In this document: one piece after another, positions 769 to 64,000 of the stretch
How the letters are laid out: every line of letters starts with the position of its first letter
Position numbering within the stretch: position 1 is the stretch's first letter
Origin: Candidatus Aminicenantes bacterium
GTDB taxonomy: Bacteria; Acidobacteriota; Aminicenantia; Aminicenantales; Aminicenantaceae
Direction of reading: 5' to 3'
Assembly: GCA_030669305.1 (NCBI GenBank)
Contig: DAOVDU010000001.1
Span: 14,812-78,811 of the forward strand
Length of the DNA stretch: 64,000 nt
Translations under genes and position numbers: made by a program
The notes under the pieces: model-generated
The model's database searches: none
Seen by the model: the letters and a program-made list of their open reading frames with translations, nothing else
Told to the model about the DNA's origin: nothing

Positions 769-1068
769 ATGGTAAGAAAAAAATATAACAAAAAAGAAAT
801 TGCCATCGGGATATCCTGCATAATAACTGTCATTTTGATTCTAAGCTTTTACATCTGGCACCAGACAGAATCTATCAATTTAGGGTATAGAACGGGAGAA
901 CTGGAGGAAGAAGTTCTTAATCTAAAGAAAGAAGTTGAAAAACTGGAAACAATAAAATCGTCCCTTCTTTCTCTTGATAAAGTTGAAAAAATCGCCAAAG
1001 ATGAGCTGAAAATGGATCCTGCAAAAGATGAACAGATTATTTACGAAAATTTCAATAATAATCCTTAA
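769..1068 (+). CDS. ftsL: cell division protein FtsL-like (single TM plus coiled coil)
   Basis: 99 aa with an N-terminal TM (IAIGISCIITVILILSFYIW) followed by a heptad-rich coiled coil. Positioned between rsmH and ftsI, with its ATG directly after the rsmH stop. Confidence 0.7.
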   Translation: MVRKKYNKKEIAIGISCIITVILILSFYIWHQTESINLGYRTGELEEEVLNLKKEVEKLETIKSSLLSLDKVEKIAKDELKMDPAKDEQIIYENFNNNP

Positions 1069-1079
1069 AAATAGATCCA

Positions 1080-5691: not shown

Positions 5692-5692
5692 C

Positions 5693-6781: not shown

Positions 6782-6782
6782 A

Positions 6783-8150: not shown

Positions 8151-8154
8151 AGAT

Positions 8155-11749: not shown

Positions 11750-11751
11750 GT

Positions 11752-13835: not shown

Positions 13836-13844
13836 GAGGGAAAA

Positions 13845-15056
13845 ATGACTGAGCAAATAAAAAGCAACTTAAAATTTCATTTAGTCGAAGAGCACATTGG
13901 CGCTAAAATCAAGGTTATCGGCATTGGCGGCGGGGGGGGAAACGCTACTAACAGGATGATAGAGACACAAATTGGAGGAGTAGAATTTATCGCCGTCAAT
14001 ACAGACCTCCAAGCGCTCAATGCCAACAAATCTGGAACAAAAATCCAGATCGGCAGCCAATTGACAAAAGGATTGGGGTCAGGAGGTAGACCTGACATTG
14101 GGAAAGAAGCTGCCATGGAAGATACGGAAAAATTGATCAAGGTCCTTGAAGGAGCGGATATGGTCTTTCTGACTACTGGACTCGGAGGCGGCACAGGTAC
14201 AGGAGCAATACCGATTCTAGCGAATCTTGCCTCAGAAATGGATATTTTGGCCATTGCCATCGTTACTCTTCCCTTTGAATTCGAAGGAAAAATTAGAGCA
14301 AAGCAAGCTGAAGAAGGCCTGAGCGAATTGAAATCTGCTGTTGACACAGTTATTTCCATTCCAAATGAACGGCTGCTAGAGACAGTAAATCTGGACACTT
14401 CAATTCAAGATGCTTTCAAAATGGCTGACGATATTTTGCGTCAGGCAGTCCAGGGAATATCCGATCTCATCACCAGACCAGGACTGATCAATCTAGACTT
14501 TGCTGACGTCAAATCTATTATGAAAGGTATGGGCATGGCTTTCATGGGGACAGGAATTGCCTCAGGAGAAAACAGGGCAGTCGATGCCGCCCATAAAGCT
14601 ATCTCCAGTCCGCTCCTTATAGACACCTCAATAGAGGGAGCACACGGAGTTCTCATCAACATAACAGGAGGCAAAGACATCACTCTTCACGAAGTTTCAA
14701 AGGCTTCCGAGCTTATCCACAGTATGGCACATCCAGAGGCCAACATCATTTTTGGCACAGTCATCGACGAAAGCATGAAAGAAATGGTTAAAGTCACTGT
14801 CATCGCTACAGGTTTTGACTTATCGTCAGAAAGGGAATCAGCCACTCCTGAAGAATTTGGGCCCCCTCGTCGAGAAAGCCCCCCCCCATTCCTGGCTCCA
14901 CAAGAGACACCTCCTTATATATTCGAACCAAAAGGAAGAGAAACTCTCTGGCAAAGGCCTGCGTGGGAAAAACAATGGGAACCCTATGAAACACCCTCTT
15001 TTATAAGAAGAAACAAACACACATCACTGAGGAAGTTTCCTCATGAAGCCAGCTGA
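13845..15056 (+). CDS. ftsZ: cell division GTPase FtsZ
   Basis: Tubulin signature GGGTGTG. NAT and NTD stretches. Pro-rich linker and C-terminal IPSFIRRNK peptide resembling the FtsA/ZipA-binding tail. Confidence 0.95.
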
Positions 15057-48804: not shown

Positions 48805-49884
48805 ATGTTCGGATTCAACAGAGAAAAAGAATTGCTTGGGTTAGACATTGGTTCTTACTCTATTAAGGCTGTCGAACTTAAGTCAAAAAAAAAGGAAATA
48901 GAAGAGCTCTACGAAGTCAAAAAAATTGGATATGAACTGCTTCCCCATGATGCAATAGTAGAGGGAACAATTATCGATTCTGCTGCTGTAGTTGAAACAA
49001 TAAAAATGATTTTTGATGAAAATAAGATTTCAAATAAGAATATTACCATTGGTATTTCAGGAAATGCAGTGATTATCAAAAAAATATCACTTCCCTCTAT
49101 GGAAACAGAAGAATTGGCCGAATCCATTATTTGGGAAGCCAAGCATAACATTCCCTATCCCTATGAAGAAACAAATGTTGATTATGCCATTCTAAAACCA
49201 TCTCAATATCCAGAGGAAACAAACCTTGATATTCTTCTTGTGGCAGCAAAAAAGGACAAGATTGCAAACTATAGTAGCGCAATCAATCAGGCCCGCAAGA
49301 ATTTGGAAGTAATTGACGTGGATGTTTTCGCCCTCCAAAATGCTCTGGAAGTAAACTATCCAGAGATCTTTAATGAAAAAACAATTGCTATAATTAATCT
49401 TGGAGCAAACATAACAAATGTCATCATAATCGAAAAGGGAATTCCTCAACTCTTCCGAGATTTATCCCTCGGAGGCTCCTTTTTTACAGAAAACATGAGC
49501 AAGGATTTAGGCATCAGCTTCGACGATGCTGAAAAGTTGCTTAAGGGCCTTCCGGTCAAAGATATTGAACCAGAACGGTTTCAGACAATCCTGAATATGA
49601 ATGTACAAAATATCATCGAAGAACTTGAAAAGACTTTTTCTTTCTACGAAGCTGGAGAAAAAAAAGAGAGGAAAATCGAACTCATTTTCCTTAGCGGTGG
49701 ACTTTCCAAATTGAAAGACTTATCAAGCAATTTTGAACAAAAGTTCAAAATTAAGACAGATATTTTTAACCCGTTCCGGAGAATTTATTTTGATGAAAGG
49801 AAATTCGATAGCATTTATTTGGAAGAAATGGCTGCTCTTTTCGGAGTGGCCACAGGGCTAGCGATAAGAAAAGTGGAAAAATAG
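48805..49884 (+). CDS. pilM: type IV pilus assembly protein PilM
   Basis: Actin-like ATPase fold beginning LGLDIGSYSIKAVEL. First gene of a pilMNOPQ-like operon. Confidence 0.8.
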   Translation: MFGFNREKELLGLDIGSYSIKAVELKSKKKEIEELYEVKKIGYELLPHDAIVEGTIIDSAAVVETIKMIFDENKISNKNITIGISGNAVIIKKISLPSMETEELAESIIWEAKHNIPYPYEETNVDYAILKPSQYPEETNLDILLVAAKKDKIANYSSAINQARKNLEVIDVDVFALQNALEVNYPEIFNEKTIAIINLGANITNVIIIEKGIPQLFRDLSLGGSFFTENMSKDLGISFDDAEKLLKGLPVKDIEPERFQTILNMNVQNIIEELEKTFSFYEAGEKKERKIELIFLSGGLSKLKDLSSNFEQKFKIKTDIFNPFRRIYFDERKFDSIYLEEMAALFGVATGLAIRKVEK

Positions 49885-49887
49885 ACA

Positions 49888-50505
49888 ATGATAAAAATAA
49901 ACTTATTAAAACCGGGAAAAAAAGAGATTAAAGAGGGGCCAACCCCTTTGGCCCCGGAATTTAAAGAAAAGAAAAAACAACCCCTATACAGCCTGATCAT
50001 CCTCGTTGTAATTATTGCTATTGCAGCTCTTTTCTTTTTTCAGAAATCATCTTTCAATAAAGAACAAAACCTTTTAAGAACTGCCCAGGAAGAAAAAAAG
50101 GAGCTGGAGTATGTTGAAGTTAAGTTAGCCCAATTGGAACAGCAAAGGGATCTTATTAACAGAAAAATCAGCCTCATCAGACGGCTACAATCGCATCAAG
50201 AAATTGCCGTTAGAATAATCGATGAACTAAGCAAGAATATTCCAGGCTGGGTCTGGCTAACCGAAACAACTTATGAGAACTATCTTTTGAAGATAAATGG
50301 TCAAGCACTATCCAATAATCTCATCGCAGACTACATCTTCAACTTGAACAAAAGTCCCTACTTCCGCAACGTTAGCCTTATTTCCTCAACTCAAAGTTCC
50401 TCAAGAACTAATAAGTATTTAGAATTTTCCCTAACAGCAAAATATGTTCTTCCTCCTGCGATTATGTCCCCAACAGGAGAAGCTGAAAAAAGGGAGGAAA
50501 AATGA
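49888..50505 (+). CDS. pilN: type IV pilus assembly protein PilN
   Basis: N-terminal KINLLKP motif, single TM and coiled coil. Confidence 0.75.
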   Translation: MIKINLLKPGKKEIKEGPTPLAPEFKEKKKQPLYSLIILVVIIAIAALFFFQKSSFNKEQNLLRTAQEEKKELEYVEVKLAQLEQQRDLINRKISLIRRLQSHQEIAVRIIDELSKNIPGWVWLTETTYENYLLKINGQALSNNLIADYIFNLNKSPYFRNVSLISSTQSSSRTNKYLEFSLTAKYVLPPAIMSPTGEAEKREEK

Positions 50506-51086
50506 GAGATTGGCCTTGGTATGGTTATGTTCTAATAGCAATTATTATTTTTGGGATTTTCTTTCTATTTTACTTCAGACCCAAAAATGAAGAACTTAAA
50601 GAGCTCAGAGAAGAAAGAATAATAGTTGAAAAAGATGTAGTAAGGCTGCAAGCAAAAAAAGATCAGCTGGATATAATAGAAGAAGAACTAAAACTCATGA
50701 GCGCAACCCTTAATGAATTAGAGGCCATCATGCCTCAAAAGGAAGAAATTGACGTTATTTTAAGACAAATCCAACAGCTCGCAAATGACACCCGACTAAA
50801 TATTACAAAATTCGTCCCAAAAGGGGAAATTGCCAAAGATTTTTATGCAGAAAAACCAATTTCAATAGAAATAACCGGAAATTATCATAACTTAGGAATA
50901 TTCTTTGATCGACTGAGCAATTTTTCGCGTCTTTTCAATATTGAGGATTTTTCAATAAAATCCCTTCGCTTACAATCTGAAGCCTCCACCATTTCAGCTA
51001 AATTGACAGCCAAAACTTATATTTCTCCTGAAGCACAGCCAGATCAAGAAGAAAGTGGAAAAAACATAGGAGAGGAGAAAAAATGA
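50502..51086 (+). CDS. pilO: type IV pilus assembly protein PilO
   Basis: Single TM, coiled coil and C-terminal PilO-like domain. Operon position, with a 4-nt overlap. Confidence 0.7.
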   Translation: MRDWPWYGYVLIAIIIFGIFFLFYFRPKNEELKELREERIIVEKDVVRLQAKKDQLDIIEEELKLMSATLNELEAIMPQKEEIDVILRQIQQLANDTRLNITKFVPKGEIAKDFYAEKPISIEITGNYHNLGIFFDRLSNFSRLFNIEDFSIKSLRLQSEASTISAKLTAKTYISPEAQPDQEESGKNIGEEKK

Positions 51087-51544
51087 GGAAAATAATCACG
51101 GTTTTTCTTTTTGTAAGCCTTCTCTGCTTAAGTTTTCACCCTCTTTCTGCTCAGGAAGTGAAAAAGAAAGCAGAAATGCAAAAAGGCACTGATGTATTAA
51201 AAAAGGAATCCTTTTCCTACAACCCGGCTGGAAGAAGAGATCCCTTTAAAAATCTACTCGTGGGGCAAGAAGTTAAGGATAAAACTTTGGCTGGAGGGAT
51301 TTCGCAAATCTCAATCAACGATGTCATTCTTATCGGTATTGCTAAGGCAAAAGGAAAATTGACTGCCATCATAAATGGTCCACAGGGATTCCCTTTCTAT
51401 CTTAAAATAGGAGATAGACTTCTTGATGGTTTCGTTCTTTCTATAAAAGATTCTAAAGTTATTTTCCGTAAGACAAAAGAAAGAGGCACGCCCCTATATA
51501 AATCGAAAGACATTGTCAAAGAAATAAATCCAGAGGAGCGATAA
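51083..51544 (+). CDS. pilP: type IV pilus assembly protein PilP-like
   Basis: Signal peptide and about 150 aa. Position between pilO and the secretin, with a 4-nt overlap. Confidence 0.55.
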   Translation: MRKIITVFLFVSLLCLSFHPLSAQEVKKKAEMQKGTDVLKKESFSYNPAGRRDPFKNLLVGQEVKDKTLAGGISQISINDVILIGIAKAKGKLTAIINGPQGFPFYLKIGDRLLDGFVLSIKDSKVIFRKTKERGTPLYKSKDIVKEINPEER

Positions 51545-51545
51545 T

Positions 51546-53906
51546 ATGAAAACGAAAAAATATTTGCAAGCACTCTCTCTATTATGCATCCTTCTTCTCA
51601 CGAGTGGATTTGCAAGCAACAATGAATCCTCAACTAACATAAATAATATATCTATCGAGCCTGGGAAACTCAATACAAAGATAATTCTAGAAGCAAGCTC
51701 TTCTCTTTCTATCTTTAATTCACACTACTCCAAGAAATTTCCTTCAACAATTGTCATTGATCTAGACAATGTAAAAACGATTCAGGAACCACAATTCATA
51801 CCAAATGAATCTACACTGATTAATAGAATAAAGATAGAAAAAATAGATATGGACAAGGCTCGCCTCCTCATCGACCTTAAGGAAAGAGTGCCTTATCGAA
51901 TCATTTCAGACAAAGAAAGCACAATAATTGAGTTAAATGAAATCCAGAAATCTCCAGGAGATTACACTCTTAATCCTGAAATAAAAAAAGAGCTAGAAAA
52001 AAGCACAAAGACCAACATTCATTTAAAAGGAATTAATGTCTCAGAGAATAAAGATAGGATTGATATCACTGCCAGGCTTAGCGATGAGGCTATCTCTCAA
52101 ATATTTGTTCTTGACAATCCGCTACGTCTTGTAGTCGATCTTTTCGATACATTATATTCCAAGCCAATATCAGTCTATCCAGTAAATAAGCTGGGAATAA
52201 AAAAAGTGAGAATAGCTCAGTTCCAAGTTTCAAACCCTTACACTATTACACGAATAGTCTTTGACATCACAGAACCCAAATTCTATACCATAGACTCAAG
52301 CATGGAAAAGATGGTCTTTTCTTTCTATAAGGAAACAGCTGCTCAATCAGTCCCTGTAATAGGCACTTCTGTTCCAACGGACGTCAAACCGAATTTTAAT
52401 GAGCAATATATCCCTCAAAAGCTGGAACAACCTGTAATAAAAAAAGTTAAACCTAATATAAAAGAAAAACCAGCACAAGAGAAAAAGAATCAAACTACAC
52501 AAGAAAAAATCGAGCCTGAAAAAACAACAGAAAACAAAAACATTGATCCTCCAAAACCCATTCAGTCAAACAAAAATGTGGTTTCTCCAAACGGAAACAG
52601 AACCCAGGAGGATCAGTTCAAGCCAAAAACCATAGCTGAGGCTGAAGAAAAATATTCAGGTGATTTAATCAGTCTAAGATTTAAAGATGCTGATTTGAGG
52701 GATGTTATTCTTTATATAGGAGACCATGCCGGATTAAATGTTGTTTTTGACCCTGATGTAAGAGGAGTTGTAACCTGTAACCTCGAGGATGTGCCTTGGG
52801 ATCAAGCTCTTGATGTTCTTATCAAAAATAACAAGATGGGTAAAACCATAGAAGGAAACATACTCCGGATTGCACCTATCAATGTTCTTATGAGGGAGCA
52901 GGATGATCAGCGAAGATTAGAGGAGAGTAAAGAATTAGCAGGGCCTATCCTGGTAAAAACTTTTACTCTATCCTATTCTAAAGCTGGAGACGTTCACGGG
53001 CTTTTGCGTTCTAAAATATCAGAAAGAGGTGAAATCATCGTTGACGGGCGAACTAACACATTAATAATATCTGATGTAAAAGATAGAATTGACCTTTTAG
53101 AGAAACTCATAGTTGTATTTGACACTCCAACTCCTCAAGTTTCTATAGAAGCCCGGATTGTGGAAGCAACATCCACATTTATCCGCAATCTCGGAGTCCA
53201 ATGGGGATTTAGAGGTATATCAGATCCTTTTTACGGCAACCAGACCTCCCTTCAATTCCCGCATACAGCAATAATTGACGGAGCACTCATTCCTCAAGGA
53301 ATCATAACAAAGGGTATCGGAGGGCCTTTAGGCGGTTATGCTGTCAATCTTCCTGCCCCTGCATTTACCACGGCCCTGGGTATCTCCTTCAGTAATGTAT
53401 TAGATACCTTCAGGATAGACATGGCTATTTCTGCTCTTGAGACTTCAGGAGACGGTCGAATCATCTCTAGTCCCACTGTTACTACTCAGAACAACCAAGA
53501 GGCAGAAATCATACAGGGCAGGCAAATTCCTGTTCAGACCGTAGCAAATTTTACCGTAACCACAAGATATGTTAATGCCGCCTTAGAACTCAGAGCTACC
53601 CCTCAGATTACTGCCGAGGGGACAATTATCATGCATATTGAAATACAGAACAATGCAGCCGACTTCGCCAACCTTGTCAACGGCATTCCTCCTATAACTA
53701 CTCAGAGCGCCACGACTACAGTCATGATTCCTGATGGAGGAACTACCGTAATCGGAGGAATATATAGAACCGAAGATTCTATAACTCGAGAAGGAGTTCC
53801 ATTTCTCCATAAAATACCTATTCTGGGAAACCTTTTCAAATCCTTCGCTCGAACAAAGCAGACTCGAGAACTGCTAATATTTATTACTCCCAGAATAATC
53901 AAATAA
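51546..53906 (+). CDS. pilQ: type IV pilus secretin PilQ (two AMIN domains, low-complexity linker, N0 and secretin domains)
   Basis: C-terminal secretin block GGIYRTEDSITREGVPFLHKIPILGNLFKSFARTKQTRELLIFITPRII. Two AMIN-like repeats in the N-terminal third. Confidence 0.85.
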   Translation: MKTKKYLQALSLLCILLLTSGFASNNESSTNINNISIEPGKLNTKIILEASSSLSIFNSHYSKKFPSTIVIDLDNVKTIQEPQFIPNESTLINRIKIEKIDMDKARLLIDLKERVPYRIISDKESTIIELNEIQKSPGDYTLNPEIKKELEKSTKTNIHLKGINVSENKDRIDITARLSDEAISQIFVLDNPLRLVVDLFDTLYSKPISVYPVNKLGIKKVRIAQFQVSNPYTITRIVFDITEPKFYTIDSSMEKMVFSFYKETAAQSVPVIGTSVPTDVKPNFNEQYIPQKLEQPVIKKVKPNIKEKPAQEKKNQTTQEKIEPEKTTENKNIDPPKPIQSNKNVVSPNGNRTQEDQFKPKTIAEAEEKYSGDLISLRFKDADLRDVILYIGDHAGLNVVFDPDVRGVVTCNLEDVPWDQALDVLIKNNKMGKTIEGNILRIAPINVLMREQDDQRRLEESKELAGPILVKTFTLSYSKAGDVHGLLRSKISERGEIIVDGRTNTLIISDVKDRIDLLEKLIVVFDTPTPQVSIEARIVEATSTFIRNLGVQWGFRGISDPFYGNQTSLQFPHTAIIDGALIPQGIITKGIGGPLGGYAVNLPAPAFTTALGISFSNVLDTFRIDMAISALETSGDGRIISSPTVTTQNNQEAEIIQGRQIPVQTVANFTVTTRYVNAALELRATPQITAEGTIIMHIEIQNNAADFANLVNGIPPITTQSATTTVMIPDGGTTVIGGIYRTEDSITREGVPFLHKIPILGNLFKSFARTKQTRELLIFITPRIIK

Positions 53907-55496: not shown

Positions 55497-57647
55497 TTAT
55501 TCATAAATAACAATCGATTTTCTTCCCTTGATTTGCTTGAGGGATTTTTTCAGGACCTCATCGAGGCTCCTCTTCCTCCTGGATTTCATTATAACCTGAA
55601 TCCTGTATTTTCCTCTAACCCTTGTCACCGATGCCAAAGCAGGACCCAATATCTCAACATTATCAGCCTGGCTCTTCACCTGTAAAGAAAATGCTCTGGA
55701 TTCCTTAGCTAAAGTTCTTAAATTATTTCCCAGGAACAGCACTTCAGCCATATGCGAAAATGGGGGATAGTTCATGATGCGGCGGTATTTAATTTCTTTA
55801 TTAAAAAAGCAGATGTATTCCCCAAAGGCAGCCTGCTGAATACTGAAGTGGTGAGGAAGAGCCGTCTGGACAAGGAATTCAGACTCTTCATCATCCCGGA
55901 CAAATTTCCTCATCTGGTGCAGGCTTTGAAAAGTTTTTTGGCTTGCTCTAAAATCAGAGAGAGTAAGAATTGTTTCTGGACAAAGAACAACAACCAAAGA
56001 TACAGGAGTTAAACCAGCTTGATGAACTAATAGCCGGGTCCCAAGAAGAAGATCAATTTTCCCTTTCTTAAAATGCAAAAGGATTCTTTCCCTCTCTTTT
56101 TTGCTCTTTATAACATCTGTATCAAAACACACAATCTTGCTTTGAGGAAATTTCTTTTTCAATTCCTCCTCAACGGCTTCGATACCGAAGCCTTTTTTTC
56201 TGATAATCCTGCTCCCACACTCAGGGCATTCATTCTTCTTAGGCAGAGAATAATTACAATAATGACAAACTAATCTTTCTTCTCTTTTATGATAGGTCAA
56301 GGCAATATCGCAATGAATGCAGCGAGGGATGTAGCTGCATCTCGAGCAGATGAGAAAAGGGGCATATCCGCGCCTGTTAATAAAAACTAGAATAGGCTGT
56401 TTCTTTTTTAATCTTTCTCCAATTTTTTTCTCAAGTATTTCGGAGATCACACCTCTTTCCCGCTTATCATCAACGATTTTGACTTTCCTTCCTTTTATCC
56501 CCTCGTCTAAACTCAACAAATAGCCATTCTTTTTAGCTTTGTAAAAAGCCTCAACAGAGGGAACAGCAGAACCATAGACCAAAACTGAAGCTTCTTGTTT
56601 TGCTCTTATCCACGCTCCTTTTCTGGCATCATAGGAAGGGCTCTCCCGTTGATAATAAGAGTCATCCTGTTCTTCATCCACAATAACCAACCCCAAATTC
56701 TCAAGCGGTGAAAAGAGACAAGAACGGGGCCCTACAACCACATCTACTTTCCCATCTTTTATCTTTTGCCATTCAAGTTCCTTCTTTCTTTCTGATAATT
56801 GGCTGTGGAGAAGAACGGCGTTCCCTCCCAATTTCTTCTCAAACTTTTCTAAAAGAGTTTTGGTCAAGGAAATTTCAGGGACAAGAAATAATACCCTCCT
56901 CCGCAGAGATAAAGCTTTTCTAATCAAACTGAAGTAAACCGCCTCTCTCTTCTCTTGGGAACCATAAAGAAAATAGGGCGAAAAAATCTTCTTGCCTGCC
57001 TTTCCAGCGATAAGGTGAACAGCCTGGAAAGATTTCTCATCCAAGGAAAAATCTATTTCAAGCTGAGTTGGCCCAGCAGGAACCGCCATCTCCTTTTTTC
57101 GATTTGCCTTTTTAACTTCTCTCTTGATCTGTATCAACCCTTTATTCTCCAGTCGAGAAAGCATATAAGACAAATTTTTTTCTTTGAATCTTCTTCTCAG
57201 GAAAATGTCACTGTATGGCCTTTTTTGCAGGAATTCCAAAATACTTCTCTCCCCTTGTGACATAGCTCCATTCTGGATGGCAACTTTCCCTTTCTCAGAG
57301 AGAGATATCCTCGCTTTGCTCTTAAGAACAAAAGAAGAGGGAAGCGAGGCCTGGAGAAGCTCCCCCCAGGCTGAATAATAAAACCTGCTAAGATTTCGGG
57401 TGAAAGCGAGAAAACTCGAGGAAAAAACTGGCTCTTTTTCCAGCACTTCCAAAATCTCCTTGAGTTTAAAGTCCTGAGCTAACCTCCTTTTTTTTAGACC
57501 AATAATAAAGCCAGTAAGTTTCCTTTGACGGAAGGGAACAAGTACTCTCGACCCGATTTTTGCTTCTTCAGAATATGCTTCTGGGATTATATAAAAAAAA
57601 GATAAATCAATAGGAAGAGAAAGGATGATTTCAGCATATAAGGTCAT
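55497..57647 (-). CDS. priA: primosomal protein N' (PriA helicase)
   Basis: 3'-DNA-binding N-terminus. Helicase core. Cys-rich zinc-binding region CSRCSYIPRCIHCD...CHYCNY...CPECGS. Confidence 0.9.
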   Translation of the reverse strand: MTLYAEIILSLPIDLSFFYIIPEAYSEEAKIGSRVLVPFRQRKLTGFIIGLKKRRLAQDFKLKEILEVLEKEPVFSSSFLAFTRNLSRFYYSAWGELLQASLPSSFVLKSKARISLSEKGKVAIQNGAMSQGERSILEFLQKRPYSDIFLRRRFKEKNLSYMLSRLENKGLIQIKREVKKANRKKEMAVPAGPTQLEIDFSLDEKSFQAVHLIAGKAGKKIFSPYFLYGSQEKREAVYFSLIRKALSLRRRVLFLVPEISLTKTLLEKFEKKLGGNAVLLHSQLSERKKELEWQKIKDGKVDVVVGPRSCLFSPLENLGLVIVDEEQDDSYYQRESPSYDARKGAWIRAKQEASVLVYGSAVPSVEAFYKAKKNGYLLSLDEGIKGRKVKIVDDKRERGVISEILEKKIGERLKKKQPILVFINRRGYAPFLICSRCSYIPRCIHCDIALTYHKREERLVCHYCNYSLPKKNECPECGSRIIRKKGFGIEAVEEELKKKFPQSKIVCFDTDVIKSKKERERILLHFKKGKIDLLLGTRLLVHQAGLTPVSLVVVLCPETILTLSDFRASQKTFQSLHQMRKFVRDDEESEFLVQTALPHHFSIQQAAFGEYICFFNKEIKYRRIMNYPPFSHMAEVLFLGNNLRTLAKESRAFSLQVKSQADNVEILGPALASVTRVRGKYRIQVIMKSRRKRSLDEVLKKSLKQIKGRKSIVIYE

Positions 57648-58291
57648 TTTTTGCCCAGGAAGGCCATCACTTTTTTCATGTCCTCCCAGACCATTCTTCG
57701 AATTTTCTTGTTGCCCTCATTTCTAATAAGATAAGAAGGATGAAAGGTCGGCATCACATTAATCTGATCAAATTTATAAAAGTCCCCCCGTAAAGCAGTC
57801 ATTCCCAGCTTGTTTGGAATAAAAAAATCAGCAGCCACTTTCCCCAAGGTAACAATGACTCTGGGGTTAATCATCTTGATTTGCTCAAAGAGATATCCTT
57901 TACACTTTTCAATTTCCTCCCTATTAGGAGTTCGGTTATTAGGCGGCCTGCACTTGATAATATTAGTGATATAAACTTCTTCTCTTTGAAAGTGCATGGC
58001 ATTTATTATTTTTGTAAGAAGCTGCCCTGCTTTCCCTATAAAAGGTCTCCCTTGTATATCTTCATCATGGCCAGGGGCTTCCCCGACAAATAGAAGTTCT
58101 GTTTTCTGATTCCCCTCTCCCGGCACAGCATTCTTTCTGCTCTGCGCCAGGGGGCACTTTTCACAGTGAAGGATACGTTCTTGAAGAGAAACAAAATGAG
58201 ACTTTTTTATTATGAACTCAGCCCCAATCAGTGAAAAAAATTTTAATTCCTCCTCAAGATCAAAAAGGAGTTTTTCAGCCGCTTTTCCCAA
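57644..58291 (-). CDS. udg: uracil-DNA glycosylase, family 4 (Fe-S)
   Basis: GEAPGHDEDIQGRPFIGKAGQLL motif and the HCEKCPLAQ Cys cluster. Confidence 0.85.
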   Translation of the reverse strand: MGKAAEKLLFDLEEELKFFSLIGAEFIIKKSHFVSLQERILHCEKCPLAQSRKNAVPGEGNQKTELLFVGEAPGHDEDIQGRPFIGKAGQLLTKIINAMHFQREEVYITNIIKCRPPNNRTPNREEIEKCKGYLFEQIKMINPRVIVTLGKVAADFFIPNKLGMTALRGDFYKFDQINVMPTFHPSYLIRNEGNKKIRRMVWEDMKKVMAFLGKK

Positions 58292-59483
58292 TTATCTCCT
58301 CCACTTCATCTAGTATTATCTTGCTTATCTCAAGTTTGCTTTTCTTCCCCGTTTTAATCATCCTTCCATCAGGGTGAATTATGCTTACCTGATTAAAATC
58401 TGATTCAAATCCCACGCCTTCTACAGATACATCATTGGCTACGATTAGATCAAGATTCTTCTCTTTTAATTTTTTGAGAGCATTGTGTATAACATTTTCT
58501 GTCTCGGCTGCAAACCCGACCAGGATCTTTTTGCCTTTTTTGTGGCTGATTTTATCCAAAACATCTTGAGTCCGAATAAGATCTACTTTTCCCGACGACT
58601 CTCGCTTTTTAATTTTCTGGAATGATACCTCGGCAAACTTGAAATCAGAGACAGCAGCAGCCATAATGACAATATCAGCCTTCTCAAAGTGTTTCAAAAT
58701 CTCCTCTTCCATTTCCTGGGCAGTCTGAATCTCTCTGAACTTGGTTTCTCTTGGTGGCTGAATATTAGTAGGGCCAGAAATTAGGATGACATCCGCCTCA
58801 CGTCTCTGAGCCTCCTCTGCAAGCTCATAGCCCATCTTGCCTGAAGATCGGTTAGTTAGAAAGCGGACAGAATCCATGAATTCCCGGGTCGGACCCGCTG
58901 ATACAAGAATTGTTTTTCCCCTTAAGCTATGGCTCTTATCTATCAACTTCAGCCCTTCTTCAACAATTTTCTCAGGGGCAGCAAGTCTTCCCCATCCTTC
59001 TTCTCGACAAGCCAAATAGCCCTTTTCTGGCTCAATAAACTTCACTCCTAGGGACTTAAGTTTTTTGATATTCTGCTGGGTTTGTCTGTGAAAATACATG
59101 GATTCATTCATGGCAGGAGCTATGATTACTGGACATTTGACAGCCATATAAAAAGTCGATAAAAAATCATCCGCTATGCCAGAGGCAAATTTTCCGATCA
59201 TATTGGCTGTGGCTGGAGCAACAAGAAAGAGAGATATTTCTTTGGCTAGAGCTACATGAGAAATCTCTTCAGAAAATTCATCACTAAAAGGATCTATGAA
59301 AATCTTATGACCAGAAAGAGCACTAAAAAGCAGAGGAGAAACCAATTGGGCAGCATTTTTTGTCATAATAACCTGAATTTGAAACTTTTTCTTCTGGAAG
59401 TTACGGATAATTTCACAAGATTTGTAAATACTGATTGATGAGCATATCCCCAAAGCGATTTTTTCCATTTCAGCCTCTTTCAT
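58275..59483 (-). CDS. coaBC: bifunctional phosphopantothenoylcysteine decarboxylase / phosphopantothenate-cysteine ligase
   Basis: N-terminal flavoprotein domain and C-terminal CoaB domain. 402 aa. Confidence 0.9.
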   Translation of the reverse strand: MKEAEMEKIALGICSSISIYKSCEIIRNFQKKKFQIQVIMTKNAAQLVSPLLFSALSGHKIFIDPFSDEFSEEISHVALAKEISLFLVAPATANMIGKFASGIADDFLSTFYMAVKCPVIIAPAMNESMYFHRQTQQNIKKLKSLGVKFIEPEKGYLACREEGWGRLAAPEKIVEEGLKLIDKSHSLRGKTILVSAGPTREFMDSVRFLTNRSSGKMGYELAEEAQRREADVILISGPTNIQPPRETKFREIQTAQEMEEEILKHFEKADIVIMAAAVSDFKFAEVSFQKIKKRESSGKVDLIRTQDVLDKISHKKGKKILVGFAAETENVIHNALKKLKEKNLDLIVANDVSVEGVGFESDFNQVSIIHPDGRMIKTGKKSKLEISKIILDEVEEIIGKSG

Positions 59484-60085
59484 ACTTCTTCAGAAAAACT
59501 TCGAAGGATAAGCATAATTTCCTTCTTGCAAGGATCGAAGCGGCATCTCGTGCTCAAAATGATTGATTTCAGCTCCTCCACAGCTTTTTCAAGCAGGTCA
59601 TTGATAATAATATAATCAAAATGATGATAATGCCTGATTTCTTTTTTTGCCACATCAAGCCTTTCATTAATCGATTCAGGGCTCTCTTCGCCTCTTTTTT
59701 CCAGTCTTTTTTTCAGCTCCAAATATAATGGAGGCATGATAAAGATGAAGATAGTTTTTTTTAGCTTCTCTTTTATTTGATGCGCGCCCTGGACATCAAT
59801 ATCCAAAAGAATATCTCCTTTTGTTGCCTTCTTCTCTAGCTCTCTTTTGGAAGTACCATAATAGTTACCATGAACAACAGCCCACTCAACCAGCTTCATA
59901 TCTTCAATCATCCTCTTAAATTCGCCTTCTGATACAAAATAATAATCCTTTCCCTCTTCCTCGGAATTTCTCTTTTTTCGGGTTGTATAAGAGACAGAAA
60001 AATCGATATTATCCAGTTCTTCCAGAACCCGACCAGCAAGCGTAGACTTCCCGCATCCTGATGGACCAGTGATAATAAAAAGCAT
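59480..60085 (-). CDS. gmk: guanylate kinase
   Basis: P-loop ITGPSGCGKSTL and a YYFVS-like NMP-binding region. Confidence 0.9.
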   Translation of the reverse strand: MLFIITGPSGCGKSTLAGRVLEELDNIDFSVSYTTRKKRNSEEEGKDYYFVSEGEFKRMIEDMKLVEWAVVHGNYYGTSKRELEKKATKGDILLDIDVQGAHQIKEKLKKTIFIFIMPPLYLELKKRLEKRGEESPESINERLDVAKKEIRHYHHFDYIIINDLLEKAVEELKSIILSTRCRFDPCKKEIMLILRSFSEEV

Positions 60086-60171
60086 CTTTTTTCCTAGTTT
60101 CCTATATTATCATAATATCAATTTTTCCAATTTATGTTAATAAGAGGATAATATAATAGAAGGGTAGAAAG

Positions 60172-60372
60172 TTCAAATTCCAAATAACAAATAAGCACCA
60201 AAATTCCAATTACAGGCGGTTGGTAAATACTGCTAAACTGCCATACTGCAGAAGAATAAGAAAATGGTAAATGGTTAATAGTTTTCTTGCCTTAAACCTT
60301 AAACTTTAAACCTTAAACTAGTTTGTTTGGAATTTGTTTGGAATTTGGATTCTGGAATTTGGGATTTTGAAT
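60172..60372. mobile_element. MITE-like element, copy 5 (variant internal sequence, reiterated right TIR)
   Basis: Left CAAATAACAAATAAGCACCAAAATTCCAATTAC. Internal CCTTAAACCTTAAACTTTAAACCTTAAACTA. Right TTTGGAATTTGTTTGGAATTTGGATTCTGGAATTTGGGATTTTG. Confidence 0.45.
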
Positions 60373-61250
60373 TATTCTAAATTCTGAACTTGTTGGCGGA
60401 TACTCTCTACCTCTCCCTTAATCATTAAGCTCCCTTTGATTATCTCAATATCATGTGCTTTAGAATTTAAGGTATTTGCCTCCCGATAAAGTTCCTGAGC
60501 AACAAAATCCAGTTTCTTCCCTACAGGTTCTTCAATTTTTGGAGAAAGAAGTTCCTGCGAATGATTCAAATGGCTCTTCAGTCTAGCAATTTCTTCTGTC
60601 AAATCGTATCGTTGAGCAAGATAGGCCGTTTCTTCGGCCAGCTTTTCCTGTGAAATCACAGCTTCCTGATCTAACTTTTTTAATCGTTCTGTCAATTTTT
60701 CTCGGATAAGAAAAGGCTGCTTTTTCGCAAGCCCTTCGATCAGGTTCACAGCTTTCCTTATATTCTGGAGATTTCTCCTAATCTCTCTTTTTATTTCCCT
60801 CCCCTCTCTAAGCCTTTCCTTTATAAGCACATCCAGGGCCTTTTCAAAACTTCTCTCTAAAAATTCAACTTCTTCTCCAGTCAAATCTTTTCTCGTCAGA
60901 TCCACAATATGCGGGATGCTAAACAAATTCTCCACTGAAAAACTCGACCTCTGATGCATCCTGGAAGACACCTTTTCCAGAGAAGAAAGGATCTCTCTCA
61001 ACAAATCTTCATTGATCCGAAGCTTCCAGCTCCCTTGATCCAGAAAATTCAAGCTAATGAAGACCTCAATTCTTCCTCTATGCAGCCTTTTCTGACAGGT
61101 AGCTCTAAGTTTGTTCTCTACTGCTCCGATTTGGTTCCCGCGGCAGCTCCAATCTAAGTAGCGGTGGTTTAGAGTTCGGATACTAATCTTTACAGAAATA
61201 GTTTTGGAATCAAACTTCTTTTCTGCATAGCCAGTCATGCTTCGGATCAA
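60372..61250 (-). CDS. yicC: YicC-family stress-induced protein
   Basis: MIRSMTGYA N-terminus and C-terminal DUF1732-like region. Adjacent to gmk as in many bacteria. Confidence 0.85.
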   Translation of the reverse strand: MIRSMTGYAEKKFDSKTISVKISIRTLNHRYLDWSCRGNQIGAVENKLRATCQKRLHRGRIEVFISLNFLDQGSWKLRINEDLLREILSSLEKVSSRMHQRSSFSVENLFSIPHIVDLTRKDLTGEEVEFLERSFEKALDVLIKERLREGREIKREIRRNLQNIRKAVNLIEGLAKKQPFLIREKLTERLKKLDQEAVISQEKLAEETAYLAQRYDLTEEIARLKSHLNHSQELLSPKIEEPVGKKLDFVAQELYREANTLNSKAHDIEIIKGSLMIKGEVESIRQQVQNLE

Positions 61251-63046
61251 AACGTAACCTCTTTTTCCTCAGGAAACTGCAAATCATACAATTTTCTGTA
61301 AATGCCGTTTTTTCTATACAGCTCCCTATGGGTACCAATTTCAGCAATACTGCCCTTATCCACAACAAAAATTTTGTCAGCATTTCGTATCGTAGATAAG
61401 CGATGGGCTATAACGAAAGTGGTCCTATTTTTCATAACATTTTTAAAGGCGATCTGGACTAGTCTTTCTGACTCAGAATCCAATGCTGAAGTGGCCTCAT
61501 CAAGAATAAGAATTGGCGGATCTTTTAGTAACGCTCTTGCAATGGCTAACCTTTGTCTCTCTCCGCTGGATAACAACCCTCCCCTTTCCCCTATCAGGGT
61601 ATCATAACCCTGAGGGAGTCTTTTTATAAAATCATGTGCTTTGGCAGCTTTAGCAGCTTCCTTAATTTTCTCTAAAGAAGTCTCTTCCATGCCATAAGCG
61701 ATGTTGTTACGTACGGTATCATTAAAGAGGATGAGCTCTTGAGTAACCAGTCCGATTTGGGACCTAAGAGAGGAAAGGGTTACTTCCCGGATATCAATTC
61801 CATCGATCATGATTCTCCCAGTGTTTGCCTCGTAAAAACGGGAAAGGAGATTAATTATGGTGGTCTTTCCAGCACCGCTCAATCCAATGAGAGCTACTGT
61901 TTCTGCAGGGAGCACCTCAAAGCTAACATCATGGAGAACATGGCTTGTCTCATTGTAGCTGAAAGAGACATTTTCAAACTTTATCTTTCCTTTCAAAGGA
62001 GGAAGAGGATATGCTTTAGGATGATCAACAATTTGAGGCTTAATTTCCAGGAGCTCTTGAACTCTTTCATAACATGCCACTCCATGCTGGATGACAACGT
62101 TTGCCCGGCTAATCCTCTTGATAGGTGTATACATCATAAAAATGGCTATGATAAAGGAGCCAAAAGCACCAGGGGTTATGTATCCTTCGGCAATCCTTCT
62201 TGTACCCACAAGAAGTATAAAAGCTCCGACGACACCGCCTAAAAATTCCATAAAAGGCGAGGATAAGCTCCCTATCCAGGCCAGCTTTATGCTGTTTTTG
62301 AAATACTTCAGAGTGGATTGAAAGAATTTCTTCATTTCAAATTTTTCCATAGTAAAAGCTTTGACTATCTTGTTGCCAGTAATGGTTTCATGGAGAAGAC
62401 TGTAAATCTGAGCCATCTTAATCTGATTTAACTTTCCCATCTTTTTTAGTTGCCGGCTGAAAATCGCCAAGGGAATAACAGCTAAGGGAGCTATGACAAA
62501 AGCCACTAAAGCCAAATGCCAATCGACGATAAACATCCTCACAAGAAGTGCAAAAAGAATAAAAACTTCCTGAATAAGATTTCCCATGCTTCCTGAGACT
62601 GCTTCCTGGATCTTATCAATATCGTTTGTTAACCTGGACATGAGTTCGCCGGTGGCTTTTCGGTCAAAAAAATTGGAGGATTGGTAAACCAGATGCTCAA
62701 AAAGATTATCTCTCATCCTTTTTACAATTTTATGACCGATGGACTTCATGAGAAAAGAGGAGAGGAAAGTAGACAATCCTTTTCCAAAAATAACAATGAC
62801 AAGGAGCACGGGCAGAAACCATATAAGCTCATCTCTGGTAATATGGAAATATCGATAAACGAACTCCATAGAACTCGCTTTTTCGGGAGATGCTTGAGAT
62901 ACAAAAAACATCTCATCTAAGATAGGCTGAATTAAATTAACAAAAACATAAGTAAAAAAAGCAACAAAGATCGTGAAAACAAAGGCAAGAATGAGTCTCC
63001 TTTTCTCTGTGAGCGTGAGTTTTAAAAGCTGGAATATTTGATTCAT
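61247..63046 (-). CDS. ABC exporter, fused permease/ATPase (MsbA-like)
   Basis: 6-TM domain then Walker A GLSGAGKTT, signature LSSGERQRLAIARA and Walker B ILILDEATSALD. Confidence 0.85.
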   Translation of the reverse strand: MNQIFQLLKLTLTEKRRLILAFVFTIFVAFFTYVFVNLIQPILDEMFFVSQASPEKASSMEFVYRYFHITRDELIWFLPVLLVIVIFGKGLSTFLSSFLMKSIGHKIVKRMRDNLFEHLVYQSSNFFDRKATGELMSRLTNDIDKIQEAVSGSMGNLIQEVFILFALLVRMFIVDWHLALVAFVIAPLAVIPLAIFSRQLKKMGKLNQIKMAQIYSLLHETITGNKIVKAFTMEKFEMKKFFQSTLKYFKNSIKLAWIGSLSSPFMEFLGGVVGAFILLVGTRRIAEGYITPGAFGSFIIAIFMMYTPIKRISRANVVIQHGVACYERVQELLEIKPQIVDHPKAYPLPPLKGKIKFENVSFSYNETSHVLHDVSFEVLPAETVALIGLSGAGKTTIINLLSRFYEANTGRIMIDGIDIREVTLSSLRSQIGLVTQELILFNDTVRNNIAYGMEETSLEKIKEAAKAAKAHDFIKRLPQGYDTLIGERGGLLSSGERQRLAIARALLKDPPILILDEATSALDSESERLVQIAFKNVMKNRTTFVIAHRLSTIRNADKIFVVDKGSIAEIGTHRELYRKNGIYRKLYDLQFPEEKEVTF

Positions 63047-63049
63047 CTC

Positions 63050-64000
63050 TTAAGCCGATGATGTAAAAAAACTCTTCTCCGCAATCTCAAATGCATTCAA
63101 GGCTGACCCGCAAGTCAAATTATCCGCTACGGCCCAGACCCAGAAGCCATTAGGAAATGATTCTTCTTTTTTGATAGGACCAATGAAAATCTTATCTTTT
63201 CCCGCCACTAAAACAGACGAGACAGGACTCGAAAGAGATAAAGGAGAGAGCTTAAAATAGGGAGATTTTTTAAAGAGATTTTCTAGAGCCAGAATGCTTG
63301 CTTTTTTTTCCAATTCTAAATAAGTCATAATTGAATAGGCATGAAATACAGGAGCCTGGACGACTGATAAAGAGATAGGAAAACTGCTGCTTTCAAGGAC
63401 TCTCCTTATTTCTGATATGATTTGTCTTTCAATTGAGGAAACGCCATTTTTATCAATTGCTTCAGTATGAGAAAGAAGATTAAAGGCTATCTGTGCCTTA
63501 AAAACTTTTTTTGAAAATGAAGAGCTGCTTAGTACAGCAACACTCTGACTCGCCAGCTCCTTAATCCCAGTGTCTCCAAATGCAGATACGGGTTGAAGAA
63601 CAAAAGCAATGGCCTTTAAAAGTCCAAATTTCTTGACAGTCGGATGAAAGAGATGGGAAAGGATGATCGTAACAGGATGAGGATTAGCAATAAGGCCAAA
63701 CTTCTCACTCAAAATAATATTGTCATTCACTCCCGCCACAACTATTGGAATCTTTTCTTCATCATTAAATGCTCCGCATAAATCGATTGCCCGAAATTTT
63801 GCCTTAGAGGCAAGAATCCCATATTCCCGGCTAATGCTTTTATCTGCTGCTAAAAAAACCAGGTCTGCCATTGAAATAGAATTCCTGTCTAGAGGGTAGA
63901 TGACTTTAGCCTCGCCCCGAAATTGAGTCAGTTTGCTGTATTCTGATTCGATGTCCGGGTCGAAAAAGTCAATTTTTTCAAGAGGGAATTTTTTCTTGCT
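63050..64000 (-). CDS. aspartate-semialdehyde dehydrogenase family protein lacking the catalytic Cys motif; 5' end lies beyond the window
   Basis: Colinear with Asd: LVFLAADKSISREYG, GLIANPHPVTIIL where Asd has IIANPNCSTI, APVFHAYS and WVWAVADNLTCGSALNAFEIAE. The frame stays open upstream of the first in-window Met to nt 64000. Confidence 0.7.
   Translation of the reverse strand, partial: SKKKFPLEKIDFFDPDIESEYSKLTQFRGEAKVIYPLDRNSISMADLVFLAADKSISREYGILASKAKFRAIDLCGAFNDEEKIPIVVAGVNDNIILSEKFGLIANPHPVTIILSHLFHPTVKKFGLLKAIAFVLQPVSAFGDTGIKELASQSVAVLSSSSFSKKVFKAQIAFNLLSHTEAIDKNGVSSIERQIISEIRRVLESSSFPISLSVVQAPVFHAYSIMTYLELEKKASILALENLFKKSPYFKLSPLSLSSPVSSVLVAGKDKIFIGPIKKEESFPNGFWVWAVADNLTCGSALNAFEIAEKSFFTSSA

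What the first reader, a model, noticed from the sequence alone, without database searches (positions are those of the whole stretch)
63050..64000. Asd-family paralog with NPHPVT in place of the catalytic NPNC(S/T)T motif
The protein is colinear with aspartate-semialdehyde dehydrogenase. This includes the NAD-domain strand LVFLAADKSIS, the His-containing PVFHAYS block and the strongly conserved C-terminal WVWAVADNLxxGSALNAFEIAE. I verified on the DNA (rc of 63660-63700) that the active-site cysteine position reads GLIANPHPVTII. Without that Cys the canonical thioester mechanism is impossible. This looks like either a pseudo-enzyme or structural paralog, or a member of an uncharacterised Asd-like clade with different chemistry. 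Its position downstream of an MsbA-like exporter is also atypical for asd.
Basis: partly seen in the sequence, partly recalled or inferred. Interest (0 to 1): 0.5.

Follow-up and report, generated by a model that had tools for sequence, protein, structure and literature searches.

The report
Catalytically dead Asd paralog of Acidobacteriota
This gene encodes a well-conserved copy of the amino-acid-pathway enzyme aspartate-semialdehyde dehydrogenase that has lost every residue needed for that reaction; it belongs to an uncharacterised family found across Acidobacteriota, almost always next to membrane-lipid genes, so it probably does a different, still unknown job.

Summary
Measured against S. 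pneumoniae Asd, the changes are Arg99 to Asn, Asn127 to His, Cys128 to Pro, Glu220 to Ile, Lys223 to Gln, Arg245 to Gln and His252 to Tyr. The His in PVFH is not the catalytic His. GxxGxxG reads GTDSLxG in close homologs.

This is not a sequencing error or a pseudogene. None of the 120 closest homologs has the Cys, and dN/dS is about 0.1-0.3. The gene occurs in at least 565 species genomes.

The family forms its own clade, marked by a His-Pro and a Phe-His signature. It is separate from canonical Asd and from the USG-1 branch, and it carries Acidobacteriota names (Aminicenantes, Terriglobia, Thermoanaerobaculia).

In 9 of 9 non-Aminicenantes loci the order is DUF465, (psd), pssA, Asd-like. In Aminicenantes it is DUF465, Asd-like, MsbA-like exporter, yicC.

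Best reading: a non-ASADH Asd-fold protein, probably non-redox, linked to envelope-lipid biogenesis. The biochemical role is inferred, not shown. A 2025 review already notes such dead Asd relatives exist and are unstudied. Interest is moderate.

The parts
63050..64000 (-). Asd-like CDS, 3' 316 codons plus the TAA stop. About 26 N-terminal codons lie beyond the window end.
   Evidence: ORF and translation. Pfam PF02774 and PF01118. It is 97% identical to the full-length 342-aa P0001. An AF2 model of P0001 has pLDDT 82 and its best PDB fold matches are Asd structures.
63668..63685 (-). NPHPVT loop in place of the catalytic NPNC(S/T)T. His (63677-63679) replaces Asn127 and Pro (63674-63676) replaces the nucleophile Cys128.
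   Evidence: The His is present in 119 of 120 close homologs and Cys in none. The pair is nearly invariant across the wider clade.
63332..63358 (-). QAPVFHAYS block. Gln replaces the substrate-binding Arg245 and Tyr replaces the catalytic His252. The F-H pair is a clade-specific conserved feature.
   Evidence: Alignment to 2gyy, 2yv3 and 2qz9. F245/H246 is nearly invariant in alignments made without reference to that position.
63761..63787 (-). IDLCGAFND block. Asn replaces the phosphate-binding Arg99 of the canonical D-N-S-S-x-F-R.
   Evidence: Arg is 100% conserved in canonical sequences and absent from the clade.
63419..63439 (-). SSIERQI block. Ile replaces Glu220 and Gln replaces Lys223.
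61247..63046 (-). MsbA-like ABC exporter (599 aa). Its ATG lies 3 nt after the Asd-like stop codon, so the two genes are probably co-transcribed.
   Evidence: TIGR02203 MsbA_lipidA scores 557 bits, just below the 602 cutoff. The same adjacency occurs in about 70 of 80 Aminicenantes loci.
55497..61250 (-). Downstream same-strand block of yicC, gmk, coaBC, udg and priA. It is syntenic with the Asd-like gene throughout Aminicenantes. This is context, not necessarily a functional part.

Best explanation
The gene encodes a member of an Acidobacteriota-wide family descended from B-type aspartate-semialdehyde dehydrogenase. The family keeps the two-domain Asd fold but cannot catalyse the Asd reaction.

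SHOWN:
- Every residue used for thioester catalysis and for binding aspartyl phosphate is replaced: Arg99, Asn127, Cys128, Glu220, Lys223, Arg245 and His252. Only Gln155 is kept.
- The 2'-phosphate site for NADP (Ser37, Arg39) is gone.
- The central Gly of GxxGxxG is Ser or Thr throughout the clade.
- Two new residues in the former active-site region are nearly invariant: His at the Asn127 position, followed by Pro, and His two residues before the old catalytic His.
- The protein is under purifying selection.
- It is encoded in a fixed position next to envelope-lipid genes. The order is DUF465, psd, pssA, Asd-like (often followed by lptE) in Terriglobia, Thermoanaerobaculia and related lineages. 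It is DUF465, Asd-like, MsbA-like exporter in Aminicenantes. Start and stop codons usually overlap or lie a few nucleotides apart.

INFERRED (the mechanism I commit to, at low-to-moderate confidence): it is a soluble, non-redox Asd-fold protein. Its remodelled cleft (His134, His246 and the Ser/Thr-Leu loop at the N-terminus of helix A, in P0001 numbering) binds a phosphate-bearing ligand or a partner protein. It acts as an accessory or regulatory factor in phosphatidylserine/phosphatidylethanolamine synthesis and lipid export. The real Asd activity that the organism needs for meso-DAP would be supplied by a canonical asd elsewhere in the genome.
For: - Residue mapping onto S. pneumoniae Asd, using numbering checked by counting in the HMMER alignments.
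- All Asd, USG and ArgC equivalog models score below their cutoffs, for example NF011456 at 163 bits against a cutoff of 223.
- The Asd fold is kept: pLDDT 82, pTM 0.83, and the top Foldseek hits are 2qz9, 8juo, 2hjs and 2gyy at E of about 1e-27.
- None of the 120 close homologs has the Cys.
- In a group comparison of 60 non-redundant clade members against 58 canonical Asd sequences, the canonical set is 95-100% conserved at R99, N127, C128, E220, K223, R245 and H252. All of these are lost in the clade. The clade instead gains L17, Q196 and W313 in addition to the two His that were used to define the group. Those two His are independently near-invariant in alignments built without using them as a criterion.
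- Some subclades have no Gly left in the loop (DATSLTA, NPLTLVG). NAD(P) binding is therefore unlikely to be the shared function.
- Purifying selection: dN/dS is 0.28 against the 97%-identical relative and 0.10-0.31 for low-divergence ortholog pairs. ORFs are intact in the 84 genes extracted from the fetched loci and the window.
- Distribution: at least 565 species genomes. Source names include Aminicenantes, Terriglobia, Acidoferrales, Sulfotelmatobacter and Thermoanaerobaculia.
- Synteny: DUF465 lies directly upstream in nearly all 80 Aminicenantes loci. The ABC exporter is directly downstream in about 70 of 80. pssA is directly upstream in 9 of 9 other Acidobacteriota loci, psd in 8 of 9, DUF465 in 9 of 9 and lptE-holA downstream in 6 of 9. 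pssA and psd identities are supported by TIGR00473 and NF003685 scores above cutoff.
- MurE in the window is the meso-DAP type (NF001126 at 574 bits against a cutoff of 373, with the DNPR motif), so aspartate semialdehyde is still needed.
Against: - No biochemical or structural test of ligand binding was possible.
- Gene order in housekeeping operons can persist without any functional link. The Aminicenantes block (yicC, gmk, coaBC, priA) is plainly heterogeneous in function.
- psd and pssA are absent from the Aminicenantes neighbourhood, and the ABC exporter is absent in about 10 of 80 Aminicenantes loci. No lipid gene is therefore a universal neighbour; only DUF465 is.
- A conserved acidic residue at the end of strand beta-2 (D40, invariant in Aminicenantes; LLD in many others) would fit NAD(H) binding, so a redox role is not excluded for this subfamily.
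- I could not verify that a canonical asd exists in the same genome.
Confidence: 0.55

Rival explanations
1. The protein is a real enzyme with new chemistry. The Asd scaffold has been re-tooled so that His134 and His246 (possibly with a metal, or with NAD(H) bound by the modified loop and the beta-2 Asp) catalyse a non-thioester reaction, for example on a lipid head-group or a precursor made by PssA or Psd.
For: - Two near-invariant His replace catalytic residues at the old active site, rather than the site drifting at random.
- The Ser/Thr-Leu of the loop is conserved across the clade.
- D40 is invariant in Aminicenantes.
- Stop and start codons overlap with pssA.
- Other proteins with a GAPDH-like C-terminal domain carry out hydride transfer without a Cys. 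This point rests on general knowledge and was not tested here.
Against: - Subclades with DATSLTA or NPLTLVG have lost the Gly-rich loop.
- No other conserved polar residue that could complete a catalytic or metal site was found. E166 is common but is Ala in Aminicenantes.
- There is no hit to any characterised family.
Confidence: 0.3
2. The protein is functional but unrelated to lipids. It is a conserved pseudo-dehydrogenase whose position next to pssA, lptE or msbA is inherited gene order only. Its role lies elsewhere, for example as a partner of the DUF465 protein or as a metabolite sensor.
For: - DUF465 is the only neighbour common to all classes.
- Downstream genes vary: lptE-holA, bcp, lolCE, a convergent kinase, or msbA-like/yicC.
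- Housekeeping operons often mix functions.
Against: - pssA sits directly 5' in 9 of 9 loci from lineages that share only about 30-45% identity in this protein. The junctions overlap or are nearly abutting in all nine.
- Independently, the downstream neighbour is a lipid or LPS transport gene in most lineages (lptE, msbA-like, lolCE).
Confidence: 0.3
3. The protein is an ortholog of USG-1 (E. coli Usg, P. aeruginosa PA3116-type), the already named inactive Asd paralog.
For: - 2hjs (USG-1 homolog) is among the best PDB sequence and fold hits.
- It shares several substitutions with this clade: IDLS, S-x-IER and QAPVF.
Against: - The scores to 2hjs are no better than to canonical Asd (110 against 113 bits).
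- The USG-type models NF005957 and NF004224 score far below their cutoffs (129 against 273 and 141 against 284).
- In a neighbour-joining tree the His-Pro/Phe-His clade is monophyletic and separate from the cluster that contains 2hjs.
- 2hjs keeps GATGSVG and a Cys in the loop.
- The genomic context differs: pdxB-usg-truA-dedA in enterobacteria (PMC6358828).
Confidence: 0.1
4. The gene encodes an active ASADH with a shifted or alternative nucleophile, or the motif is an artefact (a sequencing error or a decaying pseudogene).
For: None beyond overall colinearity with Asd.
Against: - Seven functional residues are lost, not one.
- No Cys appears in or next to the loop in any of 120 homologs.
- The same motif appears in independent assemblies from many samples.
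- dN/dS is well below 1 and ORFs are intact.
Confidence: 0.02

Closest known systems
B-type (Asd2) aspartate-semialdehyde dehydrogenase, EC 1.2.1.11 (e.g. T. thermophilus 2yv3, V. cholerae Asd2 2qz9, S. pneumoniae 2gyy)
   Same: It has the same two-domain fold and length and is colinear over the full length at about 25% identity. It shares structural motifs: D in the IDx strand, Q-x-x-S, ELxxQ, AFN, PVF and W-x-x-x-DNL-x-x-G-x-A-x-NA-x-x-IAE.
   Different: All catalytic and substrate-binding residues except Gln155 are replaced, and the NADP 2'-phosphate site and the central loop Gly are lost. It scores below every Asd equivalog cutoff. It sits in a lipid-gene neighbourhood rather than an amino-acid-pathway one.
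USG-1 branch of inactive Asd paralogs (E. coli/Salmonella Usg; P. aeruginosa USG-1 homolog, PDB 2hjs)
   Same: USG-1 proteins are also Asd-fold proteins that have lost catalytic residues and have no known function. A 2025 review states that the USG branch and some Asd2-affiliated sequences have lost all catalytic amino acids and that no further information exists (PMC12041015). Several substitutions are shared.
   Different: It falls in a separate cluster in the neighbour-joining tree. USG-1 (2hjs) keeps an intact GATGSVG loop and an SPCA loop, whereas this clade has G-x-x-S/T-L-x-G, a His-Pro and a Phe-His. The context differs (pdxB-usg-truA-dedA against DUF465-psd-pssA-Asd-like or DUF465-Asd-like-msbA-like). 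The taxon differs (Proteobacteria against Acidobacteriota).
Pseudo-dehydrogenases in general (e.g. vertebrate ALDH16 as described in PMC12041015)
   Same: An enzyme fold is retained under selection after loss of the catalytic residues. A regulatory or protein-interaction role has been proposed for such proteins.
   Different: These belong to an unrelated superfamily. The comparison is an analogy only, and no shared mechanism was tested.

Membership tests
Aspartate-semialdehyde dehydrogenase (Asd, EC 1.2.1.11) | Active-site Cys nucleophile in the N-P-N-C-(S/T)-T loop (Cys128 in S. pneumoniae numbering) | tested here: not met
   The position is Pro (CCT, 63674-63676). None of 120 homologs has Cys there.
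Aspartate-semialdehyde dehydrogenase (Asd, EC 1.2.1.11) | Catalytic His (His252) that activates the Cys | tested here: not met
   It aligns with Tyr in QAPVFHAYS. The canonical set has His at 100%.
Aspartate-semialdehyde dehydrogenase (Asd, EC 1.2.1.11) | Substrate- and phosphate-binding residues Arg99, Glu220, Lys223 and Arg245 | tested here: not met
   They are Asn, Ile, Gln and Gln respectively.
Aspartate-semialdehyde dehydrogenase (Asd, EC 1.2.1.11) | GxxGxxG dinucleotide loop and the NADP 2'-phosphate site (Ser37, Arg39) | tested here: not met
   The loop is GTDSLHG in the 97%-identical full-length homolog. The 2'-phosphate site reads Pro and Glu. The loop itself lies outside the window.
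Aspartate-semialdehyde dehydrogenase (Asd, EC 1.2.1.11) | Score above the curated equivalog cutoff (NCBIfam NF011456, TIGR01296 and others) | tested here: not met
   163 against 223 bits, and 155 against 324 bits. All others are lower.
Aspartate-semialdehyde dehydrogenase (Asd, EC 1.2.1.11) | Asd two-domain fold (Pfam PF01118 plus PF02774) | tested here: met
   Pfam hits are above the gathering score. The AF2 model matches Asd structures with TM of about 0.8.
Aspartate-semialdehyde dehydrogenase (Asd, EC 1.2.1.11) | ASADH activity, or complementation of an asd mutant | not testable with these tools
   This needs an enzyme assay or E. coli asd-mutant complementation.
USG-1 family (E. coli Usg / PA3116 type) | Score above the NCBIfam cutoff for NF005957 (PRK08040) or NF004224 (PRK05671) | tested here: not met
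   129 against 273 bits, and 141 against 284 bits.
USG-1 family (E. coli Usg / PA3116 type) | Phylogenetic placement within the USG branch | tested here: not met
   The neighbour-joining tree places the clade apart from the cluster holding 2hjs. This is a distance tree without support values, so the result is provisional.
[quoted passage not shown] | Score above the TIGR01850 cutoff | tested here: not met
   17.5 against 233.6 bits.
MsbA lipid A flippase (the downstream neighbour gene) | Score above the TIGR02203 equivalog cutoff | tested here: inconclusive
   It is the best-scoring family at 557 bits, but the cutoff is 602.

The most novel reading that the evidence does not exclude
The His-Pro/Phe-His Asd-like protein is an obligate, previously unrecognised component of membrane-lipid biogenesis in Acidobacteriota. 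It would be either a regulatory or adaptor subunit of the type-II phosphatidylserine synthase/decarboxylase pathway that also couples to lipid export (MsbA-like, Lpt), or a new head-group-modifying enzyme built on a dehydrogenase scaffold that no longer uses Cys or NADP.
Probability: 0.2. Interest if true: 0.7.

Novelty: new variant of a known kind. Interest (0 to 1): 0.45.

Why it matters
Automatic pipelines, including JGI's, label these genes 'aspartate-semialdehyde dehydrogenase'. Metabolic reconstructions of Aminicenantes and other Acidobacteriota could therefore count a non-functional copy as the Asd step of the lysine, DAP, methionine and threonine pathways.

The family is large: at least 565 species genomes, and 333 of the 518 full-length sequences collected here. 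It is strongly conserved and consistently embedded beside PS/PE synthesis and lipid or LPS export genes, in a phylum known for unusual membrane lipids. If the linkage is functional, this gene gives a concrete and testable entry point into an unknown step or regulator of envelope biogenesis. It would also be a clean example of an enzyme fold re-used after complete loss of its chemistry.

Tried and rejected
- **Misalignment or indel hiding a Cys.** Rejected. Five independent HMMER alignments place NPNC on NPHP without gaps.
- **Sequencing error or pseudogene.** Rejected.
- **A second Asd homolog in the window or in any fetched locus.** None was found.
- **Whether a canonical asd exists in the same genomes.** This could not be tested. 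Whole genomes are not readable. The cluster-name look-ups for canonical representatives gave no useful taxonomy: only P0198 carried an organism name, Pseudomonadota, which is not informative here. The only evidence is indirect: DAP-type MurE.
- **Locus search with the broad alignment A2.** It failed because no stretch was conserved enough. It was repeated with A1, whose best 80 loci were all Aminicenantes.
- **The afdb50 fold library.** It was unavailable, so presence in cultured species was not checked through UniProt.
- **Literature.** Searches for USG-1 with Asd, Cys-less Asd paralogs, Aminicenantes with Asd, lysine or DAP, and pssA/psd with semialdehyde dehydrogenase found nothing. The DUF465 literature gave no function.
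- **Rfam scan of the window.** No hits.
- **MsbA adjacency as the key functional clue.** Downgraded, because the exporter is missing in about 10 of 80 Aminicenantes loci and in all other classes.
- **Distances between His134 and His246 in the model.** Not computed, because the model coordinates are not exposed.
Full report
**1. What is in the sequence**

On the minus strand, nt 64000 to 63053 is one open frame of 316 codons, followed by TAA at 63052-63050. The 5' end runs off the window.

A 97%-identical full-length homolog, P0001 (342 aa), shows that about 26 N-terminal residues are missing from the window: MKGRKRVKVVLVGTDSLHGKEMKNVL.... In that relative a 74-aa ORF lies 16 nt upstream and an ABC exporter starts 3 nt downstream.

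In the window the next gene on the same strand is a 599-aa ABC exporter (61247-63046). It starts 3 nt after the stop codon, and the junction reads TAA GAG ATG.

**2.

The protein matches Pfam Semialdhyde_dhC (3e-21) and Semialdhyde_dh (3e-6). It aligns over its full length with solved B-type Asd structures and with the USG-1 homolog 2hjs.

I checked the S. pneumoniae numbering by counting residues in the HMMER alignment. The counts reproduce R99, N127, C128, Q155, E220, K223, R245 and H252. The window protein has these changes:

| S. pneumoniae Asd residue | Window protein |
|---|---|
| Arg99 | Asn |
| Asn127 | His |
| Cys128 | Pro |
| Gln155 | kept |
| Glu220 | Ile |
| Lys223 | Gln |
| Arg245 | Gln |
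| His252 | Tyr |

The catalytic His itself is gone.

In the full-length homologs the GxxGxxG loop is G-T-D-S-L-(H/R)-G. The NADP 2'-phosphate residues Ser37 and Arg39 are Pro and Glu.

All NCBIfam Asd, USG-type and ArgC equivalog models score far below their cutoffs.

An AlphaFold2 model of P0001 has pLDDT 82 and pTM 0.83. It matches Asd structures best, with E of about 1e-27 and TM of about 0.8. The fold is therefore retained.

**3. Not an artefact**

None of the 120 closest database homologs (60-97% identity) has a Cys in the loop. ANPHPVT occurs in 90 of them, and the variants have P, S or A at the Cys position.

dN/dS is 0.28 against the 97%-identical relative. It is 0.10-0.31 for the least-diverged ortholog pairs among 84 intact genes.

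A scan of one genome per species found relatives in at least 565 genomes. The 80 best are all Aminicenantes-type.

**4. It belongs to a wide, distinct clade**

An exhaustive search of 1.84 billion cluster representatives returned 138 full-length hits. About half lack the Cys, and many share an x-P-H-P-x-x loop and a G-x-x-S/T-L-x-G loop.

Two profile searches extended this to several hundred sequences. Where source names exist they are Terriglobia, Acidoferrales, Sulfotelmatobacter, Thermoanaerobaculia, 'Acidobacteria bacterium' and Aminicenantes. NCBI names them 'Asd/ArgC dimerization domain-containing protein'. JGI names them 'aspartate-semialdehyde dehydrogenase'.

Of 518 full-length sequences gathered, 333 have His at both new positions and no Cys.

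I compared 60 non-redundant members with 58 canonical Asd sequences:
- The canonical set is 95-100% conserved at R99, N127, C128, E220, K223, R245 and H252. It is also conserved at the SGAG Gly and at two Arg in the GRxR strand. All of these are lost in the clade.
- The clade specifically conserves His134-Pro135, Phe245-His246, Leu17, Gln196 and Trp313 (P0001 numbering).
- The structural motifs shared with Asd remain: ELxxQ, AFN, DNL...NA..IAE.

The two His were used to define the group. They are independently near-invariant in alignments built without that criterion.

Some subclades have lost all three loop glycines (DATSLTA, NPLTLVG). This argues against NAD(P) binding as the function common to the clade.

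A neighbour-joining tree puts the clade in one cluster. It is separate from a cluster of other Cys-less sequences that includes the P. aeruginosa USG-1 homolog 2hjs, and separate from canonical Asd. This is a distance tree without support values.

**5. Genomic context**

In Aminicenantes the order is DUF465 (73-74 aa), Asd-like, ABC exporter, yicC, gmk, coaBC, udg, priA. The window has the same order from the Asd-like gene onward; the DUF465 position lies beyond nt 64000.
- The exporter's best family is MsbA_lipidA, at 557 bits, just under the 602 cutoff.
- The exporter is absent in about 10 of the 80 loci, the most divergent ones, including a Saccharicenans MAG. There the Asd-like gene abuts yicC.

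In nine loci from other Acidobacteriota lineages, which share about 30-45% identity in this protein:
- The gene directly upstream is always a CDP-alcohol phosphatidyltransferase, usually with a 4-nt (once 14-nt) overlap and otherwise 1-10 nt apart. This gene is pssA; TIGR00473 scores above cutoff in two of the three tested.
- pssA is preceded by psd in eight of the nine, and by a DUF465 gene further upstream in all nine.
- The downstream gene is lptE-holA in six loci. In the other three it is a Bcp peroxiredoxin, an unknown gene followed by lolCE/lolD/clpB/bamA, or a convergent histidine kinase.

The persistent neighbours are therefore DUF465 and pssA/psd. The variable downstream neighbours are mostly lipid, LPS or lipoprotein transport genes.

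**6. Is a real Asd needed?**

The MurE encoded in the window (2831-4312) is the meso-DAP type. NF001126 scores 574 bits against a cutoff of 373, and the DNPR motif is present. The organism therefore needs aspartate semialdehyde.

No second Asd homolog is present in the window or in any fetched locus. The rest of the genome could not be read, so a canonical asd elsewhere is inferred, not shown.

**7. Interpretation**

*Shown:* this is a conserved protein with the Asd fold, under selection, that cannot perform the Asd reaction. It has a remodelled former active site with two new conserved His. It occupies a fixed place beside membrane-lipid genes across a phylum.

*Inferred:* it acts without redox chemistry as a ligand-binding or partner-binding accessory factor in PS/PE synthesis and lipid export.

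*Main rival:* a new His-based enzyme activity on the same scaffold. The invariant beta-2 Asp (D40) in the Aminicenantes subfamily leaves NAD(H) binding open for that subfamily.

*Second rival:* the lipid context is only inherited gene order, and the relevant partner is the DUF465 protein or something else.

The USG-1 ortholog, active-Asd and artefact readings are disfavoured or refuted (section 3).

**8. Relation to what is known**

Salmonella usg lies in a pdxB-usg-truA-dedA operon and is annotated only as a putative Asd (PMC6358828).

The existence of dead Asd relatives is therefore already noted. I found no description of this Acidobacteriota clade, its His-Pro/Phe-His signature or its DUF465-psd-pssA linkage in the searchable literature.

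I rate it a new variant of a known kind, of moderate interest. It also has a practical consequence: it is widely mis-annotated as Asd.

Noticed in passing
window 46-15056 (+): A run of same-strand ORFs whose sizes and order fit a division/cell-wall (dcw) cluster. Only MurE (2831-4312) was checked. It is the meso-DAP-adding type (NF001126 above cutoff, DNPR motif).
   Followed up: partly
window 48805-53906 (+): A type IV pilus assembly block. PilM (48805-49884) and the secretin PilQ (51546-53906) score above their NCBIfam cutoffs. The three small ORFs between them have weak or no family hits.
   Followed up: partly
window 44467-46905 (+): An 812-aa ORF with no Pfam family at E of 1e-5 or better.
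   Followed up: no
window 60086-60371: A 286-nt AT-rich spacer between yicC and gmk that contains short tandem repeats (gtttaagg-like and aattccaaa-like units). It has no Rfam hit. The yicC-gmk spacing varies by up to about 450 nt among Aminicenantes genomes, while other genomes have almost no spacer.
   Followed up: partly
L069, L070, L074, L075, L078-L083 (Aminicenantes loci): In the most divergent Aminicenantes genomes, including a Saccharicenans MAG, the MsbA-like exporter is absent. The Asd-like gene is followed directly by yicC. The exporter adjacency is therefore lineage-specific.
   Followed up: yes
L091 112-336; L003 9760-9984; the region directly upstream of the match in L004-L083: A 73-74-aa Lys/Glu-rich DUF465 (PF04325) gene lies 15-40 nt upstream of the Asd-like gene in nearly all Aminicenantes loci. 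It lies upstream of psd-pssA-Asd-like in the other Acidobacteriota. It is duplicated in tandem in L086. No function is known.
   Followed up: partly
Genome contigs titles of L007, L008, L010-L013, L051, L052 and others: Many contigs that carry the Aminicenantes-type gene and the full Aminicenantes synteny are titled 'uncultured Eubacteriales', 'Clostridiales bacterium' or 'Candidatus Desulfaltia'. These are probably mislabelled or mis-binned MAGs.
   Followed up: no
window 26427-28433 (-): A 668-aa protein with a C-terminal Sulfatase domain (PF00884), an architecture like LtaS or phosphoethanolamine transferases. It is another possible envelope-lipid enzyme in the window. The N-terminal region was not examined.
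   Followed up: no
L096 7038-12408: In one Acidobacteriota lineage the Asd-like gene is followed by an unknown 262-aa coiled-coil-like ORF, then lolCE (TIGR02212 at 356 bits, just below the 362 cutoff), an ABC ATPase, clpB and bamA.
   Followed up: partly
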